Origin: Ostreococcus lucimarinus
Taxonomy: Eukaryota
Assembly (NCBI GenBank): GCA_000092065.1
Contig: CP000585.1
Strand: one strand, 5' to 3'
DNA: 64,000 nucleotides
Position numbers and translations under genes: made by a program. Positions 24,719 through 63,611 of the stretch are shown in pieces (position 1 is the stretch's first letter; each line of letters starts with the position of its first letter). The notes beneath the pieces were generated by a model. That model did no database searches and had not been told where the DNA came from. It saw only the letters and a list, made by a program, of their open reading frames with translations.

Positions 24719-25650
24719 ATGACCGCGCTCGAAGAAATCTCCACCGACGAGCTCATGCGCGAGATTCAGCGGCGGCTGGAGTGCCAAAATAAGCCAGACA
24801 AGCGCTTGATCCTCATCGGTCCGCCGGGATGCGGCAAGGTGCGCGTTTTCGACCGTCAACTTCGACCGTCAAAACCTCAAAAAGCGCGCTTCGGGACACC
24901 CGACTGACGACGCGTCTCGACGCCGAACAGGGAACGCAATCGCCTAAGATTAAATCCGACCACTGCCTGTGCCACCTCGCGACGGGGGACATGTTACGCG
25001 CGGCGGTGGCGGCGAAAACGCCGAACGGCGTGAAGGCCAAGCAAGCCATGGAGAGCGGAGCGCTCGTGAGCGACGATATCGTGGTCGGGTGCGTGTGGAG
25101 CGTTGCGATGGCGCGTTCGAGCGCGAGTGATGATACACGAGGCCCTACGCTGTGTTCTTGTGTCCTGCGCGGTGACTGACAGAGATGCTTCACTTGTGAA
25201 TGTAGGATTATCGAGGAAGCCGTCAAGGCGCCCGAGTGCCGAAACGGTTTCATTTTGGACGGGTTCCCGAGAACGGTGCCGCAAGCGGTGAAGTTGGACG
25301 AGATGCTCTCTGCGAAAGGGGTATCGATCGATGCAGTGCTGAACTTTGAAGTGCCGGATGAGGTACTCGTAGAAAGGGTGGAGGGACGATGGATCCACCC
25401 CGCGAGCGGGCGATCGTACCACACGAAGTTTGCTCCGCCGAAGGTTGAAGGGAAGGATGATTTCACGGGAGAACCTTTAATTAAGCGTAAGGATGACAAC
25501 GCGGAGACCCTTAAGTCACGCTTGCAAGCGTTTCACACGCAAACGCAACCGGTTATCGATTACTACGCGATAGCAAAGAAGGTTACTGAAATTCACGCCA
25601 ACAAACCAGCCAGCGATGTCGAAGCGCAAATTGCAGCGGCGTTGAAGTAG
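24719..25650 (+). CDS. ADK: Adenylate kinase, three exons: join(24719..24838, 24931..25088, 25206..25650)
   Basis: Exon 1 encodes [40 protein letters not shown] (P-loop). Exon 2 encodes [53 protein letters not shown]. Exon 3 encodes [34 protein letters not shown]...[61 protein letters not shown]... The three are collinear with plant ADK1. The introns are 92 and 117 bp, phase 0 and phase 2. The donors are GTGCGC and GTGCGT. The acceptors are CAG and TAG. CTGAC branch motifs lie 25-30 nt upstream of the AG. The spliced length of 723 nt gives 240 aa. Confidence 0.8.
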
Positions 25651-25685
25651 TTGAGTGCAAATCACGGTGTAACAAAACAAAAGGA

Positions 25686-27557
25686 CTACTCTTCATATGT
25701 GTATGTACTCGCGTCAGACTTACCAAACATGAGCTCTGCCGTCGAAAGCTCGCTTTCGTCAAACTCTTCCTCGTCTTCGTCGTCCGAATCTCCAGGCGCC
25801 TCCAAGCCAAGAATGGACGAAAGCCGTTCCAACAGGGGGCGGAAAGTGCTCGCCGCCGGCGACAAGTCCGTGGCCCCAACAGAAGCTTCGGCCATTTGCT
25901 GCGAGCACATGTTTCTGATCTCGATCGCCCGAACGTCGTCGCCTTCTCTCTCCTCCATCATGGCCCACGTAAGCCACGTGCGCTCGCTGCTCGCGTCGAC
26001 GTTAACCGCACATTTGAAGAGCTGTCGCGCGAGGGAGATATTTTCTTCTCGCGATTCCAATACCCCCCATGCATGAAACAAGCGCGCGGCGTCTCGATTC
26101 TTTGGATTAACCCATACGCCTCGTTGAAACAGATTGCGCGCGCGATCGATTTCTCCCGCTCGCCACTCCGCCATCGCCCATGCGTTCCAGTTCGCCTGGT
26201 GTTGGGGATCCATCATCGTCCCTTGCTCAAAGTACTTGCGCGCCTGTTCCAGATTCCCTTGCTCTGCCTCGAGCTTTGCGAGTGCTTGAAGCAAATGCGT
26301 GTCCAAGGGATTCAATTTGCATCCCTTGGTCAGGAGCTCCTTCGCGCGGTCGCAATACCCGAGCTTGGCTTCCCACACCCCCCACGCGAGCCAAATAAAC
26401 TTGCTCTTCGGGGCAACCATCAAACCCTTTTGAAAAAGCTTGCGCGCTTGCTCTTCGTCGCCCGCTTTCGCTTCTAACATGGCCCAAGAGCGCCAGATGG
26501 CGCCAGATTTCGCTCCCGCCTCTGTGCGAACGCCTTGCCTGAAATGTTCCCTCGCCTCGGAGATACGCCCGCGCTCGAGCGCCATGACGCCGAGCGAGTG
26601 GTACAGATGGGCAGACGCATCCATCGGCGGCACCAACCGCACACCTTTGATGTACAATTCTCTGGCGCGCTGATAATTTCCCAAGTTCTTTTCCATCGAT
26701 CCCCATCCGTGCCAAGCCGCGGCGTGCGTTTTATCCGCCGCCGTCGCCGCGTCGTAATACTTTCTCGCCAGCGCAATGTTCCCAGCCTTTTCCTCGAGCA
26801 CGGCGAGAGCAACCCACAAATACGCGTTGTCTCCTCCCTTGGCGTCGCATCCAGCTTGGTAAATCGCGCGCGCATCATCCAACCGACGCATCTGCACCAG
26901 TGTCTGCCCTATTCCGCAGTACGCGCGCCCATCCGTGACGTCGTACGACATCGCCTTCTCGAACATCGCTATCGCCTCTAAGCGCTTTGCGTTCCTCTCA
27001 TCCACGGATTTCATGAAGCCCGCCTCATTTCGCAATTTCCGCGCGCGGTACAGCGCCAAGTCTTGATTGATCTTGAGCGGCTTCGCGTCTCCGCTCGTCG
27101 CCTCGACGCTCCCCAACATCTGCATCTTCGATCCCGGACTCGCGATCGTCGACGACTCCCCGCTGCGACGACTTCTTTCCAACACCGCGTTCTCGTACGT
27201 CAGCTCGGGCATGGCGCGCGATCTCGCGCCGTTCGCGCTCGTCCGCTCCGTCGTCCCCGCGCCGGCGTCCCGTCGCCTTATCTCCCGCCCATCGCCATCG
27301 TCGTCGTCGTCCAGGCTCATCGACGCGCTCGACGCGCGACACGTTGATCGTTGCGTCCTCCCGCGCCATCGTCGCGCCGTTCGCATCGCTCGCGCGTCGA
27401 CGCGCCGCGCATTTCCCATCGGGACGTCACGATGCGTCGACGTTCGCGTCGACGTCGTCGCGCGTTCCGTCGCCCCGACGCATCGCGCGCGGGCGAGCGC
27501 GCGGGCGTCGACGCTCGCGAGCATCATCGACGCGCTCGCACCGAGGGCGTGGGCCAT
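25686..27557 (-). CDS. Chloroplast HAT/TPR (RNA-TPR) repeat protein, HCF107/MBB1-like
   Basis: There are about ten tandem HAT repeats with a conserved W at fixed positions (AWHGWGSMEKNLGNYQRARELY, IWRSWAMLEAKAGDEEQARKLFQKG, IWLAWGVWEAKLGYCDRAKELLTKG, ANWNAWAMAEWRAGEIDRARNLFQRG, TWLTWAMMEEREGDDVRAIEI). A chloroplast transit-like N-terminus precedes them and an acidic C-terminus follows. Confidence 0.6.
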   Translation of the reverse strand: MAHALGASASMMLASVDARALARARCVGATERATTSTRTSTHRDVPMGNARRVDARAMRTARRWRGRTQRSTCRASSASMSLDDDDDGDGREIRRRDAGAGTTERTSANGARSRAMPELTYENAVLERSRRSGESSTIASPGSKMQMLGSVEATSGDAKPLKINQDLALYRARKLRNEAGFMKSVDERNAKRLEAIAMFEKAMSYDVTDGRAYCGIGQTLVQMRRLDDARAIYQAGCDAKGGDNAYLWVALAVLEEKAGNIALARKYYDAATAADKTHAAAWHGWGSMEKNLGNYQRARELYIKGVRLVPPMDASAHLYHSLGVMALERGRISEAREHFRQGVRTEAGAKSGAIWRSWAMLEAKAGDEEQARKLFQKGLMVAPKSKFIWLAWGVWEAKLGYCDRAKELLTKGCKLNPLDTHLLQALAKLEAEQGNLEQARKYFEQGTMMDPQHQANWNAWAMAEWRAGEIDRARNLFQRGVWVNPKNRDAARLFHAWGVLESREENISLARQLFKCAVNVDASSERTWLTWAMMEEREGDDVRAIEIRNMCSQQMAEASVGATDLSPAASTFRPLLERLSSILGLEAPGDSDDEDEEEFDESELSTAELMFGKSDASTYTYEE

Positions 27558-58961: not shown

Positions 58962-59008
58962 TTCGATTGGTGGGTTTTGTAATGACTATCTTGTTCGTAG
59001 AAGTATTA

Positions 59009-60037
59009 TTAATCCGACGAGGTTTTAAGCTTCTGAAACTCTTCGTCCAACTCGTCTGTCGCCGACCGCGTCGACGAGCCGTGCTTCTTCTTTGACAGGT
59101 GTTCGGATACATCGGCGTCGTCCTCGACGTCGTCATCTTTGGACGAGTGGCTCGACGAGTGATGCTTCTTCGACGAAGAGTGCTTTGAAGAGAGTTTCGT
59201 GCTCTTCTCTTCTTCTTCTTCTTCTTCTTCTTCTTCTTCTTCTTCTTCTTCTTCGTCGCGATGGCTATGTTTGGAGTGTTTCGAGTGCTTGGAATGGTGA
59301 TGACTGTGACCGATTTTTGCGACGTAATCGACCCCGGGACACTCTGTGGCGTGTATGTTCAAATCGTCGCACACGGCCGGAGGGCAGTACGGCCAACCGT
59401 CCATGGGATCGTCCACGCTTTTCAACATGCACATTCTACACGGCGTCTCGCCCGGCTTCTGACACGCGCTCGGCACGCCCTCGTGGTTCGCGCACTCCCA
59501 ATCGCGAAAGGCGTGACGCCCGGCGTTACGATTGCCGACATCCGTCGAGCAATCACCGAGATCGTACTTCTTCTCCTTCGATCTCGTCTCCACGCCTTCG
59601 CACCCAGAGACTTCGTACTTGTCGCACACCCACGAGCTACACTTCGCCGTGCCCGACCCCTCTTTCGACGCTTCCGAGCCGGCGAGATGACAAAACTGGC
59701 ACCCGTGCGACCCGACGCAGTTCGACGGCACTCCCTCGTCGTCGGTGCAGTGCTTGTTGTACTGCTGATACAGCCCGATCGCTCGATCGCCGTGCGACGC
59801 GTCGCAATCCACCTTCGGCGGCGGCGGCGGCCGCGGCGGATGATGCGGATGCGGCGGCGGCGGCGTCGGCGGCGGCATCGGCGGCGTCGGCGGCGGCATC
59901 GGCGGCGGCATCGGCGGCGCCGGCGGCGACTCCGCCCCGATCCCGAACCCTCCGTCCCACCCCCGTCGCGCGAGCGCCAGCGCGCCGACGCACGCCGCCG
60001 CCGCCGCCGCGCCGACGCGTCCTCGCCACCGCCCCAT
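59009..60037 (-). CDS. Secreted cysteine-rich protein with Pro-rich linker and His/Ser/Lys plus poly-Glu C-terminal tail
   Basis: A signal peptide MGRWRGRVGAAAAAACVGALALA is followed by PPAPPMPPPMPPPTPPMPPPTPPPPHPHHPPRPPPPP. A 160-aa domain then contains about 22 Cys (CTDDEGVPSNCVGSHGCQFCHLAG...CSSWVCDKYEVSGCEG...CRMCMLKSVDDPMDGWPYCPPAVCDD). The tail is HSHHHSKHSKHSKHSHRD followed by E17 encoded by (GAA)n and Ser/Lys/His. It is the C-terminal 342 aa of track ORF 59009..61090. Confidence 0.55.
   Translation of the reverse strand: MGRWRGRVGAAAAAACVGALALARRGWDGGFGIGAESPPAPPMPPPMPPPTPPMPPPTPPPPHPHHPPRPPPPPKVDCDASHGDRAIGLYQQYNKHCTDDEGVPSNCVGSHGCQFCHLAGSEASKEGSGTAKCSSWVCDKYEVSGCEGVETRSKEKKYDLGDCSTDVGNRNAGRHAFRDWECANHEGVPSACQKPGETPCRMCMLKSVDDPMDGWPYCPPAVCDDLNIHATECPGVDYVAKIGHSHHHSKHSKHSKHSHRDEEEEEEEEEEEEEEEEKSTKLSSKHSSSKKHHSSSHSSKDDDVEDDADVSEHLSKKKHGSSTRSATDELDEEFQKLKTSSD
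59207..59255 (-). repeat. (GAA)16 trinucleotide microsatellite inside the CDS, encoding poly-Glu
   Basis: The plus strand reads (TTC)n. It translates to E17 in the secreted Cys-rich protein. Confidence 0.85.
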
Positions 60038-60416
60038 CTCGCGCCCGCGCGCGCGCGCCGCGTCCCCGCCGCGTCCCCGCTCGACGTCTTCGTCCTCGCG
60101 CGCGTCCTCGCGCGCGCGCGCGTCCTCGCGCGTTCGCCGCGCGCGTCCGCGCGTCGCCTCGTCGTCGTCGTCGCTCGCGCTCGATCCCGCGCCCGACGAC
60201 GCGCGCGCCGTCCGCGCGTCGCGCGCCGACGCGCGTTCGCCGCGAAGGAGCGCCTCGCGCTCGTCGCGCGACGACCGCGGCATCCTCGCCCGCGCCGTCG
60301 TCTCGCGCGCGCGACGACGCCGTCGCGATGGTGTTGCGCGCGCGGCGTTACGAAAACCCGTAACACACCGCACACGCGTGCGATCGCGCGCGCGCGTCCC
60401 GTCCCATCGCGCGCCG

Positions 60417-60424
60417 TATTTAAG
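60417..60424 (+). promoter_or_regulatory. TATA box (TATTTAAG) about 90 bp upstream of the PsaG start codon
   Basis: This is an isolated AT-rich octamer in a sequence context of over 70% GC. Its position fits a core promoter for the PsaG exon 1 proposed at 60515. Confidence 0.45.
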
Positions 60425-60514
60425 CCCCGAGGGACTCGCGCTCGAGTCGCGACTCGTCGACGAGATCGGATCCGTCGATCGCGCGAAGATACGCCCGCAC
60501 ACCCCGACGACGAC

Positions 60515-61102
60515 GATGCTCGCGCGCACGACCGCACCGACTCGCACGACCGCCACGCTGCGCAGGTGCGCGCGAAGCGCGACGCGAATCGCGGCGCGGC
60601 GCGACCGCGCGCGCGACCGGAGACCGAGGACGCGCGACCGGAGACCGAGGACGCGAGGACGAGGGAATCGTCGCGCGAGGCGCGGCGAGGCGAGCGATCG
60701 CGCGCGCGAACGGACGAGAGGACTGACGAGACGCGATGGTGACGAATGAATAGCCGCGTGGCGAAGCAAACGCGCACGGCGAAGCGCGGCGCGCGCGTCG
60801 CGGCGCGCGCGTTCGATGACGTGAACGTCGTGATCTCGTCGGCGAACGCGATTTGCCTGGCGTTGGGACGATTCGTGTTTTTGCCGTACCAACGCGCGCA
60901 AGTCGAACGCGTGGGCGCGCCGACGCAAAACGGACAGACGCACTTCGCGGCGGGCGACTCGCGCGCGGAGGAGGCGTCCTTCATCGTGTCGACGAACGAT
61001 CCGGCTGGGTTCACGATCGTGGACCTGCTCGCGTGGGGGTCCATCGGGCACGCCGTCGGATTTCTCGCGCTCGCGTCCCAGTCGGCGCAAACGATGTTGT
61101 GA
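60515..61102 (+). CDS. PSAG: Photosystem I reaction centre subunit PSI-G (PsaG/PsaK family), two exons: join(60515..60564, 60754..61102)
   Basis: Track ORF 60746..61102 encodes [71 protein letters not shown]. This matches Arabidopsis PsaG ([71 protein letters not shown]). Upstream exon 60515..60564 (MLARTTAPTRTTATLR) ends in AG followed by a GTGCGC donor. The 189-bp intron has GACTGAC 25 nt before the TAG acceptor at 60751-60753. The phase-2 join gives a 132-aa precursor with a typical transit peptide. A TATTTAAG TATA box lies at 60417-60424. Confidence 0.65.
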
Positions 61103-61202
61103 GCGTCGCCGCCGCCTCTAGTGGGTTTGTGATCGTATGAAAGACCGAACATAAGTCAATAATTCAATCGCGCTACGCTAAGAATGCTACTTTCTATGTG
61201 AG

Positions 61203-63611
61203 CTACGTGTGAGGCGGGGGGCGAAGAAACTGCCGCGCGTGCGCGCTCAACTCGCCGGCGTTTTCGAAATCCGACGCCGAGACAAAGGCGTTGACGCGCT
61301 CGAGCTTGAGCAAACGCAACGCGTCGGCGTTCAAATCGAGATCGAAATCGTCGTGAAGTTTTGAAATCGTGCGCGTCAACGCGTCGACGTTTGCGAGATC
61401 GGTCTCGTAGGTCAAGTTCACGCACTCGCGCTGGTGCGCTCGCAAGACGCTCGCCGTCGCCTCGTACCATCGCTTGTCCTCTCGAATGAGATTTCTGAAC
61501 GTTTTCTCGATAAACTTCACCCGCACGTTCGCGGACGTGACGTTCGGATCGCGCGCGGTGATGTTTTCCGCGTCGAAAGGCTCGGCAGCCTCTCGAATCT
61601 GCTGGAACGGCGCGTCGCCGTTCACCGCACGCATCGACGACGCGTACATGTCGAGCTTGTTTTCGCGACTCAAGCACAACAGCACGGGGTCTTCCGTAGC
61701 GGCGTCCAAGATGGCGCTGAGAACATCTTCCGAATGTTTGCTCGTCTCGGGCGTTGAATGGATGTGCGCGCCGATGATGGATACGTACACCTTGTCCACG
61801 CCAGCCTCCCACGCTCGGCTCAATACTTCGTTGACGAACTCACCCGGATACGTCAGCGAGGCGTCAATCGTGGCATCCTTGACGCCGATGTCTTGCAAGT
61901 ACTTTCGGAGCTTTGAACGCCAAGACGTTTCGTCGTCTTTGTCGGGGAGTTCGTCCACCGACCACCAATCGCCAAGGGTGATGTAATTCGCAAAAAACGA
62001 ATCCGTTCGCACCTGGCCGTCTCGCTCCCACAACGTGGACGACGTCGGATGATTGGAAGACGTCGCAAGCGCTTCACCGAGAAGTGACGCGCCGCCGCGC
62101 AAAGGCGACGAAGCGAGCACGAGACGGGCTTTTTTATACACGCCCTCGGTTTCGTGCAATCGCACGCGCGTGACGAGCGAGCTCGTAGCCTCGGACGAGA
62201 GCACGCGAACGAAAGACAGCGCCCACTTGTGCACGAGATCTTCATCTGCCGGGATGTTCTTCTCGAGCCATTCCACCACCATGGCTTGTCGCTCTTGATT
62301 CGTGCACCCATCCTGCCAACTCGCGCCGTGAAACGAAAAGTGGTCGATAGCGTACGATTGCGGGTACGCGCTGGCGATCGACGTGCACGGAAGAGTCGTT
62401 TTCCAAAACGTCCCGTCCGCCTCCTCCACGAGCGCGTTTGAGAGCGACAACGGATTCCAATCATCGTTGCCAGATGTCACACGCCGCCACGTCTGCGTCA
62501 CGTACTTAGTGAACGACGATTTCGTACCATCTAAATCGCTCCCATCCACCGCCTTGCCGTTATTCATCATCCACCGCATGCCAGGATCGTTCTTGGCGTC
62601 TTCGTGCGTGACTTGCTTGACGCACGTATCGAACTCATTTTCGCCGCATCCGAGCGGGTACGCGACGTCGCGATCGAGCCTCAGTATCGTGTCTCTCAAA
62701 TCGTTCGCACGAATGATGTGCGACAACCACACAGGACCCGTGATCGCGTTCGCGATGCACCGCTTGCCGAAATCTATGTTTTGCAGGTATCCGTCCGAGG
62801 AGGTGTCGTTGAACAAACTTCGAAACACGCTCGCTCCGGGCGTGAGCGCGCCGAATATCCCAGCGCTAAAGAACCTCGAGTCCCCGGGGTCGGCCACCAT
62901 GAACACCTCCTTGTTCGCCCGCAACGTCTTATGAAACAACGGCGTGATGTCCTTGAACAACTCCACGTTCGTGTCCAAGTACAATCCGCCGTGACGAAAC
63001 AACACCTCGTACTTCATCAAATCCACCAACATCGAATACACGTTCGATCCCGTGAGTTGATGAAACGCCCGCCCGCGCTCGAGCGTCGCCAGCGTAATCG
63101 GAAAGTTCCTCTCATTAATGTCTCCCTCCGTCCACAGCCGCATCTCCCACCCAGCCGCCTCCAACACCCTTCGGTTGCGCTCGAAAATCATTCGCTTCAC
63201 CCCCGGCACCTCGCTCCCGAGCCAAATCTCGTGCGCCACGCGCACGAACGCCCCCGCGTCGCTCTGTTTCGCCAGCATCTCCTCCCTGGCCACCATCCCA
63301 CACACGCCCAGCGTCAGCATCGTCGCCACGACGATCGGATGCGTCGCCCACGTCGTCGTCGCGCGCAGCCAGCCGCGTCGTCGCTCGGGGTGTTGACGCG
63401 TCGTCGCGTCGCCGCGCTCGACGTCCGGCGCGTCATCGCGCGCGCGCGCGAGCAGCGCGAGCGACTCGTCGCCGCCGGCGATCGCCGCCGACCGCGCGCC
63501 GTCGCCGACGCCCATCGCCGCGTCGTCTGCCGTCCGCTCGCCGATGGTGTTACGCCGCGCGCGAACTTCGAGGTCGATACGAAACGCCGTCTTGGTTTGC
63601 GCACCATGCAA
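61203..63611 (-). CDS. GT32-like glycosyltransferase (DXD sugar-binding region) with large uncharacterised C-terminal domain
   Basis: After a signal-anchor (THPIVVATMLTLGVCGMVA) comes IWLGSEVPGVKRMIFERNRRVLEAAGWEMRLWTEGD...SNVYSMLVDLMKYEVLFRHGGLYLDTNVE. This matches the Gly_transf_sug (OCH1/MIPC-synthase-type) region including the DxD motif. The following roughly 550 aa have no recognised domain. Confidence 0.6.
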   Translation of the reverse strand: MHGAQTKTAFRIDLEVRARRNTIGERTADDAAMGVGDGARSAAIAGGDESLALLARARDDAPDVERGDATTRQHPERRRGWLRATTTWATHPIVVATMLTLGVCGMVAREEMLAKQSDAGAFVRVAHEIWLGSEVPGVKRMIFERNRRVLEAAGWEMRLWTEGDINERNFPITLATLERGRAFHQLTGSNVYSMLVDLMKYEVLFRHGGLYLDTNVELFKDITPLFHKTLRANKEVFMVADPGDSRFFSAGIFGALTPGASVFRSLFNDTSSDGYLQNIDFGKRCIANAITGPVWLSHIIRANDLRDTILRLDRDVAYPLGCGENEFDTCVKQVTHEDAKNDPGMRWMMNNGKAVDGSDLDGTKSSFTKYVTQTWRRVTSGNDDWNPLSLSNALVEEADGTFWKTTLPCTSIASAYPQSYAIDHFSFHGASWQDGCTNQERQAMVVEWLEKNIPADEDLVHKWALSFVRVLSSEATSSLVTRVRLHETEGVYKKARLVLASSPLRGGASLLGEALATSSNHPTSSTLWERDGQVRTDSFFANYITLGDWWSVDELPDKDDETSWRSKLRKYLQDIGVKDATIDASLTYPGEFVNEVLSRAWEAGVDKVYVSIIGAHIHSTPETSKHSEDVLSAILDAATEDPVLLCLSRENKLDMYASSMRAVNGDAPFQQIREAAEPFDAENITARDPNVTSANVRVKFIEKTFRNLIREDKRWYEATASVLRAHQRECVNLTYETDLANVDALTRTISKLHDDFDLDLNADALRLLKLERVNAFVSASDFENAGELSAHARQFLRPPPHT

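What the first reader, a model, noticed from the sequence alone, without database searches (positions are those of the whole stretch)
60417..61102. PsaG precursor requires an upstream transit-peptide exon; the track start codon lies in the intron acceptor region
The annotated ATG at 60746 would give a PSI-G protein with almost no targeting sequence. It sits exactly on the AATAG acceptor. An ATG at 60515 opens MLARTTAPTRTTATLR and ends AG|GTGCGC. Splicing to 60754 (phase 2) restores the frame and gives a 132-aa precursor with a classic Ser/Thr/Arg-rich chloroplast transit peptide. A TATTTAAG TATA box lies 90 bp upstream. The total coding length is divisible by 3, which would not be expected by chance.
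Basis: partly seen in the sequence, partly recalled or inferred. Interest (0 to 1): 0.55.

Follow-up and report, generated by a model that had tools for sequence, protein, structure and literature searches.

The report
Missed first exon of psaG
The reference annotation of the photosystem I subunit G gene in the green picoalga Ostreococcus lucimarinus starts inside an intron and misses a 50-base first exon; this is a routine gene-model correction, because sister species already carry the right structure.

Summary
The window is Ostreococcus lucimarinus CCE9901. The 118-aa ORF at 60746..61102 is exactly the deposited psaG model (ABO95977.1 / XP_001417684.1).

The real gene has three parts:
- Exon 1 at 60516..60565.
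- A 188-nt GT-AG intron at 60566..60753, with an ACTGAC branch motif 27 nt before its end.
- Exon 2 at 60754..61102.

The spliced product is 132 aa. Two assembled contigs from public runs carry exactly this product with the intron cleanly absent. A control gene shows that runs of the same accession series are RNA.

O. tauri PsaG in PDB 7YCA is also 132 aa and aligns 1-132 without gaps. An O. tauri-like contig, a third Ostreococcus clade and the annotated Micromonas commoda gene all have an intron at the same codon and phase. Ten natural haplotypes keep exon 1 at 50 nt, while intron length varies between 180 and 190 nt.

Three caveats apply:
- The annotated start would still leave a 22-aa presequence, so "almost none" overstates it.
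- The TATTTAAG motif is not conserved.
- "Divisible by 3" is weak evidence on its own.

This is ordinary biology and of low interest.

The parts
60418..60425 (+). TATTTAAG, a TATA-like motif 90 nt before the start codon. Its function is unverified.
   Evidence: Present in the window. Among 10 natural haplotypes, 8 read TGTTTAAG, 1 reads TATTGAAG and 1 reads TATTTAAG. RNA contigs L001 and L002 extend upstream through it.
60516..60565 (+). psaG exon 1 (coding part, 50 nt). It encodes MLARTTAPTRTTATLR plus the first two bases of Ser17, which is the N-terminal part of the transit peptide.
   Evidence: Contiguous with exon 2 in L001 and L002. Homologous 50-nt exon 1 in O. tauri-like L020 and in L003/L021. 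Its length is invariant in 10 haplotypes.
60566..60753 (+). Spliceosomal GT-AG intron, 188 nt, phase 2, 73% G+C.
   Evidence: Precisely absent from L001 and L002. Length is 180-190 nt in natural haplotypes, i.e. indels that are not multiples of 3. No Rfam match. No other copy in the window.
60566..60571 (+). 5' splice site, GTGCGC.
   Evidence: Same GTGCG donor as both adenylate kinase introns in this window and as the M. commoda psaG intron. Invariant in 10 haplotypes.
60610..60655 (+). Perfect 21-nt tandem duplication inside the intron (2.2 copies).
   Evidence: The second copy is altered in 7 of 10 natural haplotypes.
60722..60727 (+). Branch-point motif ACTGAC. The branch A at 60726 is 27 nt before the last intron base.
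   Evidence: The same hexamer lies 30-43 nt before the acceptor in four orthologous psaG introns. It also lies about 22-25 nt before the acceptor of the two adenylate kinase introns. Only 16 copies occur in the window, both strands.
60746..60748 (+). Start codon of the deposited 118-aa model (ABO95977.1 / XP_001417684.1). It lies inside the intron, in ATGAATAG|C.
   Evidence: There is no equivalent in-frame ATG in O. tauri-like L020, where an in-frame TGA lies 9-11 nt before the acceptor (read by me from the sequence printed).
60752..60753 (+). 3' splice site AG.
   Evidence: Invariant in 10 haplotypes.
60754..61102 (+). psaG exon 2 (coding part, including the TGA stop at 61100..61102). It holds the rest of the presequence (to about 60811) and the mature PsaG from about Phe37 (60812).
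   Evidence: Pfam PF01241, 74.2 bits. PDB PsaG chains are the best hits. Mature plant and algal PsaG chains begin at query residues 37-41.
61103..61239 (+). 3' UTR, at least as far as the RNA contigs reach.
   Evidence: L001 matches the window at 100% to 61239, and L002 to 61159.

Best explanation
This is the nuclear psaG gene (photosystem I subunit V / PSI-G) of Ostreococcus lucimarinus CCE9901. It has two coding exons. Exon 1 (60516..60565) supplies the start codon and the first 16 2/3 codons. A 188-nt GT-AG spliceosomal intron (60566..60753; GTGCGC donor, ACTGAC branch site, AG acceptor) is removed. Exon 2 (60754..61102) supplies the rest.

The 132-aa precursor carries a presequence of about 36 residues: 9 Ala, 8 Arg, 8 Thr, no acidic residue, net charge +10. 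It is inferred to act as a stroma-targeting chloroplast transit peptide and to be cleaved near Ala36/Phe37. The result is a mature two-helix PsaG of about 95 residues that enters photosystem I.

The deposited 118-aa model is an annotation artefact. It starts at an ATG that happens to lie in frame within the last 8 bases of the intron.

Shown: the gene identity, the splice junction in RNA-derived contigs, conservation of the intron's position and phase, and non-coding evolution of the intron. Inferred: the transit-peptide function, the cleavage site and the promoter.
For: 1. The 118-aa ORF is identical to ABO95977.1 / XP_001417684.1 / A4RX32_OSTLU. The exact 132-aa spliced product is also in the collection (P0054, Logan only).

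2. Contigs L001 (SRR28326231) and L002 (SRR28369057) match the window up to 60565 and resume at 60754, with the intron absent.

3. Control for RNA origin. The adenylate kinase gene at 24719 has two introns with the same GTGCG and ACTGAC signals, and its spliced product equals XP_001417670.1. Logan contigs from SRR28369051 and SRR28369158 lack both introns yet run colinear with the window over 2.6-2.8 kb and three genes. Those runs are therefore RNA, and RNA contigs here do merge neighbouring genes.

4. PDB 7YCA chain G (O. tauri PsaG) is 132 aa and aligns 1-132 to 1-132 with E = 7e-69. The O. tauri-like genomic contig L020 encodes it with a 50-nt exon 1, a 205-nt intron and the same phase.

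5. The L003/L021 clade has a 50-nt exon 1 and a 230-233-nt intron. The annotated M. commoda gene has a 56-nt exon 1 and splits the same Ser codon AG|C.

6. The metatranscriptome-derived protein P0084 reads across the homologous exon 1-exon 2 junction.

7. In ten natural haplotypes, exon 1 is always 50 nt and only residue 16 varies. Intron length is 180, 187, 188, 189 or 190 nt. GT, ACTGAC and AG are invariant.

8. All Mamiellophyceae homologues carry 16-20 residues before the S-R/K-V motif.

9. 95 of the 132 residues are traced in the O. tauri structure (PMC10097422). Mature PsaG chains in the PDB start at query residues 37-41.
Against: The library type of SRR28326231 and SRR28369057 could not be read. 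RNA origin is inferred from neighbouring accessions and from a control gene, not from metadata. L001 and L002 differ from the window by a few indels upstream, so they come from other strains, not from CCE9901 itself. Both contigs carry 545-609 nt upstream of the ATG, including the supposed TATA box, so they are not clean single-transcript units. No targeting predictor or N-terminal proteomics was available, so transit-peptide function and the cleavage site are inferred. The in-frame ATG at 60746 is conserved in all 10 natural haplotypes, but so are the last 70 or so bases of the intron as a whole.
Confidence: 0.95

Rival explanations
1. The deposited model is right. Translation starts at ATG 60746, from an unspliced transcript or one initiated inside 60566..60745. 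The 118-aa protein, with its 22-residue presequence, would be the real precursor.
For: ATG 60746 is in frame with exon 2 and is present in all 10 natural haplotypes. The remaining presequence, MNSRVAKQTRTAKRGARVAARA, is still basic and free of acidic residues. This ORF is called on contigs in 1433 blocks of the collection, but those are mechanical ORF calls on genomic DNA.
Against: Spliced contigs exist. The O. tauri orthologue is 132 aa and has no in-frame ATG near the acceptor (read by me). The other clade has GTG at that place. Exon 1 is conserved in length and sequence while the intron is not. An unspliced mRNA would be read from ATG 60516 into a 77-aa nonsense peptide that stops at 60747.
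Confidence: 0.02
2. L001 and L002 are genomic DNA from natural strains that have lost the intron, i.e. an intron presence/absence polymorphism. They would then not be evidence of splicing.
For: Both contigs include 545-609 nt of upstream sequence and the TATA-like motif, which a simple mRNA would not. They differ from CCE9901 by small indels upstream. The library type was not retrievable.
Against: Runs with adjacent accessions (SRR28369051, SRR28369158) give contigs that lack both adenylate kinase introns while spanning three genes. All 10 long metagenomic contigs keep the intron. The intron-less ORF is found only in Logan, never in the ENA or JGI metagenome assemblies. The gene model also stands on the orthologues, independently of these contigs.
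Confidence: 0.02
3. Both starts are used. Most transcripts are spliced, but intron-retaining or internally initiated transcripts are translated from ATG 60746, giving a second precursor with a shorter presequence.
For: The in-frame ATG sits exactly at the acceptor, immediately after the stop of the unspliced upstream ORF (ATGA overlap). It is conserved in 10 haplotypes.
Against: There is no evidence of such a transcript or protein. The ATG is absent in O. tauri and in the L021 clade. Its conservation is not distinguishable from that of the surrounding invariant 3' part of the intron.
Confidence: 0.03

Closest known systems
Ostreococcus tauri PsaG (PDB 7YCA chain G; eLife 2023, PMC10097422)
   Same: 132 aa, and it aligns residue 1-132 to 1-132 without gaps at 83% identity. 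The O. tauri-like genomic contig L020 has the same 50-nt exon 1, a phase-2 intron, an ACTGAC branch motif and an AG|C-type junction.
   Different: The intron is 205 nt and barely alignable (62% identity against a shuffled baseline of about 52%). There is no in-frame ATG at the acceptor. Residues 6-17 of the presequence differ (ALPTKTTASFNG against TAPTRTTATLRS).
Micromonas commoda RCC299 PSI-G (P0022, annotated on CP001574.1)
   Same: An annotated intron splits the homologous Ser codon (..CGT AG|GTGCGT ... CTCAG|C AAA GTG), phase 2, with a GTGCG donor and ACTGAC 33 nt before the acceptor.
   Different: Exon 1 is 56 nt and the intron is 346 nt at 49% G+C. A second intron lies further downstream (after ..REK) that Ostreococcus lacks. 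Protein identity is 54%.
Deposited O. lucimarinus model ABO95977.1 / XP_001417684.1 / A4RX32_OSTLU (118 aa)
   Same: Identical from Ser17/Arg18 to the stop codon, i.e. all of exon 2.
   Different: It starts at ATG 60746, inside the intron. It replaces the 16 residues of exon 1 with Met-Asn and so lacks the N-terminal 40% of the presequence.
Land-plant and Chlamydomonas PsaG (e.g. PDB 7WFD, 5L8R, 7DZ7, chain G)
   Same: Same Pfam family, PF01241. The mature region aligns from about residue 37-41 to the C-terminus with E = 1e-20 to 1e-34. All are nuclear-encoded with a cleavable N-terminal presequence (established knowledge).
   Different: Plant precursors are 145-167 aa, with presequences of about 50-65 residues. 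Here the presequence is only about 36 residues.

Membership tests
PsaG (photosystem I subunit V; Pfam PF01241 PSI_PSAK) | Significant match to PF01241 above the curated cut-off. | tested here: met
   74.2 bits against a cut-off of 23.2, E = 8e-21, residues 39-129.
PsaG (photosystem I subunit V; Pfam PF01241 PSI_PSAK) | Closer to PsaG than to the paralogue PsaK. | tested here: met
   PDB PsaG chains score E = 7e-69 to 3e-8. The best PsaK chain scores 1e-7 or weaker.
PsaG (photosystem I subunit V; Pfam PF01241 PSI_PSAK) | Physically part of the PSI core, next to Lhca1 and PsaB. | not testable with these tools
   Shown only for the 83%-identical O. tauri orthologue in 7YCA.
Spliceosomal GT-AG intron | GT at the 5' end, AG at the 3' end, and a branch-site motif 20-45 nt upstream of the AG. 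| tested here: met
   GTGCGC ... ACTGAC (27 nt) ... AG. The same signals occur in two annotated introns of the adenylate kinase gene in this window.
Spliceosomal GT-AG intron | Removed from RNA. | tested here: met
   L001 and L002 join 60565 to 60754. RNA origin is inferred from the control gene in runs of the same accession series. The library metadata were not seen.
Spliceosomal GT-AG intron | Position and phase conserved in orthologues, and sequence evolving as non-coding. | tested here: met
   Same codon and phase in an O. tauri-like contig, in the L003/L021 clade and in M. commoda. Intron length is 180-190 nt in 10 haplotypes, against a constant 50-nt exon 1.
Chloroplast (stromal) transit peptide | N-terminal, rich in hydroxylated and basic residues and in Ala, and free of acidic residues. 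| tested here: met
   Residues 1-36: 9 Ala, 8 Arg, 8 Thr, 2 Lys, 1 Ser, no Asp or Glu.
Chloroplast (stromal) transit peptide | Cleaved off, and therefore absent from the mature protein. | tested here: inconclusive
   95 of 132 residues are traced in O. tauri PsaG, and mature PsaG chains start at query residues 37-41. Untraced residues could instead be disordered. No N-terminal sequencing data were seen.
Chloroplast (stromal) transit peptide | Predicted by TargetP, ChloroP or PredAlgo, or shown by an import assay. | not testable with these tools
   No targeting predictor was available.
TATA-box core promoter | Motif conserved, with the transcription start about 30 nt downstream. | tested here: not met
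   8 of 10 natural haplotypes read TGTTTAAG and 1 reads TATTGAAG. No comparable motif lies in the 118 nt upstream of the ATG in L003. The RNA contigs extend upstream of it. The start site itself could not be mapped.
Introner-like repeated intron (as in Micromonas pusilla); considered | Many near-identical copies of the intron sequence elsewhere in the genome. | tested here: not met
   No other copy in the 64 kb window. Only low-complexity matches of 39 nt or less, and the 23-nt repeat unit occurs only here. The rest of the genome was not searched.

The most novel reading that the evidence does not exclude
The in-frame ATG embedded in the last 8 bases of the intron (ATGAATAG|C) overlaps the stop codon of the unspliced upstream reading frame and is conserved in all ten natural O. 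lucimarinus haplotypes. It might be a functional second start used on intron-retaining transcripts. O. lucimarinus would then make two PsaG precursors with presequences of different length (36 and 22 residues).
Probability: 0.03. Interest if true: 0.3.

Novelty: already known. Interest (0 to 1): 0.1.

Why it matters
The significance is practical, not conceptual. The 118-aa model is the one held in GenBank, RefSeq and UniProt (ABO95977.1, XP_001417684.1, A4RX32). Mechanical ORF calling repeats it on contigs in more than a thousand blocks of the metagenome collection. The correct 132-aa O. lucimarinus precursor has no NCBI or UniRef accession in the collection searched.

Studies of targeting signals, proteomics databases and comparisons of transit peptides in picoalgae would therefore use a precursor that lacks the first 40% of its presequence. 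The case also illustrates a general weakness of the 2007 annotation: short 5' exons in front of GC-rich introns are easily missed when an in-frame ATG lies near the acceptor. Nothing here changes what is known about photosystem I, splicing or protein import.

Tried and rejected
1. I scanned JGI metagenome contigs for the spliced junction (pattern YTKSRSAGCCGCGTGGCGAAGCA). The four hits share only 17-23 nt with psaG and have no PsaG by tblastn. They are chance matches, so this gave no extra evidence.

2. A literature search for the two run accessions found no paper, so the library type stayed unknown. I replaced this test with the adenylate kinase control.

3. Introner-like repeated element: rejected, with no other copy in the window.

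4. An RNA gene hidden in the intron or UTRs: no Rfam match at E <= 0.1 in 60300..61300.

5. I considered that the long ORFs overlapping the locus could be genes: 59009..61090 and 59422..61152 on the minus strand, and 60378..60749 on the plus strand. They are the usual stop-free frames of 63-73% G+C DNA. The 60378..60749 frame is broken by the non-triplet indels seen in natural haplotypes.

6. "Coding length divisible by 3" as evidence: 3 of 15 possible ATG/GT pairs pass the same test, so it has little weight alone.

7. The bacterial promoter/terminator scan, structure prediction and fold search were not used, because they would add nothing to a eukaryotic gene-model question.

Full report
**What is in the sequence**

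Between 60300 and 61300 the plus strand holds a 118-aa ORF, 60746..61102. It opens MLARTTAPTRTTATLR and runs into ...CGCAG|GTGCGC, with the last exon base at 60565. The annotated ATG sits in ATGAATAG|C, which is the last eight bases before 60754, and an in-frame TGA lies at 60740. Joining 60565 to 60754 gives a 399-nt reading frame of 132 aa plus stop. The junction is in phase 2, inside a Ser codon AG|C. TATTTAAG is at 60418..60425.

**Identity**

The spliced product matches Pfam PF01241 (PSI_PSAK) with 74.2 bits against a cut-off of 23.2. Its best matches among solved structures are all PsaG chains (E = 7e-69 to 1e-20), while PsaK chains reach only 1e-7. The 118-aa ORF is residue-for-residue the deposited psaG of Ostreococcus lucimarinus CCE9901 (ABO95977.1, XP_001417684.1, UniRef A4RX32).

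**Direct evidence for the splice**

The exact 132-aa product is itself in the 15-billion-protein collection (P0054), from Logan assemblies only, on two contigs. These are L001 (SRR28326231, 1080 nt) and L002 (SRR28369057, 1065 nt). Both are identical to the window through ...CTGCGCAG (60565) and continue directly with CCGCGTGGCGAAG (60754 onward). They then match at 100% to 61239 and 61159 respectively.

Both contigs also hold 545-609 nt upstream of the ATG and differ from the window by a few small indels there. They therefore come from other strains. On their own they could be either cDNA or an intron-less allele. No paper mentions the run accessions.

**Control for RNA origin**

The window contains an adenylate kinase gene starting at 24719. 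It has two introns, 24839..24930 and 25089..25205, each with a GTGCG donor and an ACTGAC motif shortly before the acceptor. Its spliced 240-aa product is exactly XP_001417670.1.

Logan contigs carrying this contiguous ORF include SRR28369051 and SRR28369158. Their accession numbers are 6 and 101 away from L002's run. Those contigs are colinear with the window over 2.6-2.8 kb and three genes, at 99.9-100% identity, except that both introns are cleanly missing.

Two conclusions follow. Runs of this series are RNA, and RNA-derived contigs of this compact genome do fuse neighbouring genes, which explains the long upstream stretch in L001 and L002. The link rests on accession adjacency and is an inference. 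L001's run belongs to another series and is covered only by analogy.

**Comparative evidence, independent of those contigs**

- PsaG of O. tauri as deposited in PDB 7YCA is 132 aa and aligns 1-132 to 1-132 without gaps. Its N-terminus reads MLARTALPTKTTASFNGRVAKQ.
- An O. tauri-like genomic contig (L020) encodes that N-terminus on a 50-nt exon ending AACGG|GTACGTG. A 205-nt intron follows, with ACTGAC 30 nt before ...CACAG|CCGTGTGGCG, in the same phase.
- A third Ostreococcus clade (L003, L021) again has a 50-nt exon 1 (MLARTSVPTRTVATFE) and a 230-233-nt intron.
- The annotated Micromonas commoda gene (P0022 on CP001574.1) has a 56-nt exon 1 ending CGTAG|GTGCGT. Its 346-nt intron ends CTCAG|CAAAGTG and splits the homologous Ser codon.
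- A protein from the MERC catalogue (P0084) reproduces the +1 frame of the spliced L003-type mRNA across the junction (..APSPRLR|AAWRSK..). To my knowledge MERC is assembled from Tara Oceans metatranscriptomes.
- In a nine-sequence alignment, every Mamiellophyceae homologue has 16-20 residues in front of the S-R/K-V motif. Only the deposited O. lucimarinus model lacks them.
- ORF calls on related genomic contigs all lose similarity exactly upstream of (S)RVAKQ. Several show a translated polypyrimidine tract (FFLF) there.

**Population evidence**

Ten long metagenomic contigs carry the identical 118-aa ORF (L010-L019). All have exon 1 at exactly 50 nt, with variation only at residue 16 (Arg, Gln or His). 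The intron is 180, 187, 188, 189 or 190 nt long. GT, ACTGAC and AG are invariant. Indels that are not multiples of three are tolerated in 60566..60753 and nowhere in the exons. This is the signature of non-coding sequence between two coding segments.

**Chance**

Frame restoration by itself is weak evidence, because 3 of the 15 ATG/GT pairs upstream of the acceptor are in frame and stop-free. ACTGAC is not enriched in the window as a whole: 16 copies against 17.7 expected. It is rare enough, though, that its presence on the right strand 27 nt before the AG is not a coincidence, especially as it recurs in four orthologous introns and two control introns.

The intron has no Rfam match and no second copy in the window. 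It is therefore neither a hidden RNA gene nor an introner-like repeat, as far as 64 kb can show.

**Mechanism**

Transcription, removal of the 188-nt intron and translation from 60516 give a 132-aa precursor. Residues 1-36 hold 9 Ala, 8 Arg, 8 Thr and no acidic residue. Mature PsaG chains in solved structures begin at query residues 37-41. In the O. tauri supercomplex, 95 of the 132 residues are traced (PMC10097422).

The presequence is therefore inferred to be a stroma-targeting transit peptide, cleaved near Ala36/Phe37 (60811/60812). That PsaG needs only a stromal transit peptide and then inserts into the thylakoid membrane is established knowledge from plants. It was not tested here.

An unspliced mRNA would be read from 60516 into a 77-aa Arg-rich nonsense peptide that stops at 60747..60749. 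In O. tauri an in-frame TGA lies 9-11 nt before the acceptor, so exon 1 is indispensable there (read by me). The ATG at 60746 is a lineage-specific accident.

**Promoter**

The TATA-box reading is not supported. Eight of ten natural haplotypes read TGTTTAAG and one reads TATTGAAG. The 118 nt upstream of the ATG in L003 contain nothing similar. The RNA contigs also extend through the motif, although fusion with the divergent upstream transcript could explain that. The transcription start remains unmapped.

**Comparison and novelty**

The gene structure is the one already deposited or annotated for O. tauri and M. commoda. The protein is an ordinary PsaG, and the intron is an ordinary GT-AG intron with the local donor and branch consensus. 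The only new item is that the public O. lucimarinus model is truncated and that the correct 132-aa sequence has no NCBI or UniRef accession in the collection searched. This is a valid correction of low scientific interest.

Noticed in passing
L003:1-917 and L004:1-913, against window 60752-61270: Two short contigs come from independent samples (ENA ERZ23487813 metagenome; Logan SRR30304741). They are 99.8-100% identical to the window from the acceptor AG through exon 2, the 3' UTR and into the next gene. Upstream of that point they carry the exon 1 of the L021 clade (identical) and a related intron (81% to L021, unalignable to the window). This is either a recombinant or introgressed haplotype with its breakpoint at the intron/exon 2 boundary, or an assembly chimera. 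The stretch shared between L021 and the window at the boundary is only 23 nt.
   Followed up: partly
L033:1200-1330 (ENA contig taylor_4__contig_6763_pilon, 713 kb) and protein P0084: In the L021-type clade, a genomic contig and a MERC protein both show a 2-nt shorter (GC)n run just before ..RAFDD. L033 has an extra G as well. The presequence is therefore read in another frame (..AAWRSKRVRRSAARASPRAFDD) that is still Arg/Ala/Ser-rich. This is either slippage or assembly error in a GC repeat, or a real frameshift within a transit peptide. It was not resolved.
   Followed up: partly
window 60610-60655: A perfect 21-nt tandem duplication (CGCGCGACCGGAGACCGAGGA, 2.2 copies) lies inside the psaG intron. 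The second copy is altered in 7 of 10 natural haplotypes, and one haplotype has a 7-nt deletion further on.
   Followed up: yes
window 24719-25900 (+): An adenylate kinase gene with two short introns (24839-24930, 92 nt; 25089-25205, 117 nt), both with GTGCG donors and ACTGAC branch motifs. The spliced product equals XP_001417670.1, so the reference annotation is correct here. It served as the splice-signal and RNA control.
   Followed up: yes
window 14708 (+), 46366, 46530, 49364 and 57382 (-): Further ACTGAC motifs sit in purine-rich, GC-rich stretches, followed by AG at 20-40 nt and preceded by GTRMG donors. They look like additional introns. Simple ATG/donor/acceptor combinations give long ORFs (for example 444 aa from 49580 on the minus strand). 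Whether the reference models treat them correctly was not checked.
   Followed up: no
window 58994-60283 (-): The divergent upstream neighbour has no Pfam hit. It encodes a Cys-rich protein with Pro-rich (PPMPPPTPP), His/Ser/Lys-rich and poly-Glu tracts. Its GC-rich, low-complexity 5' part is where all short-read contigs break, and ORF callers give it seven different lengths in the ten contigs (383-442 aa).
   Followed up: no
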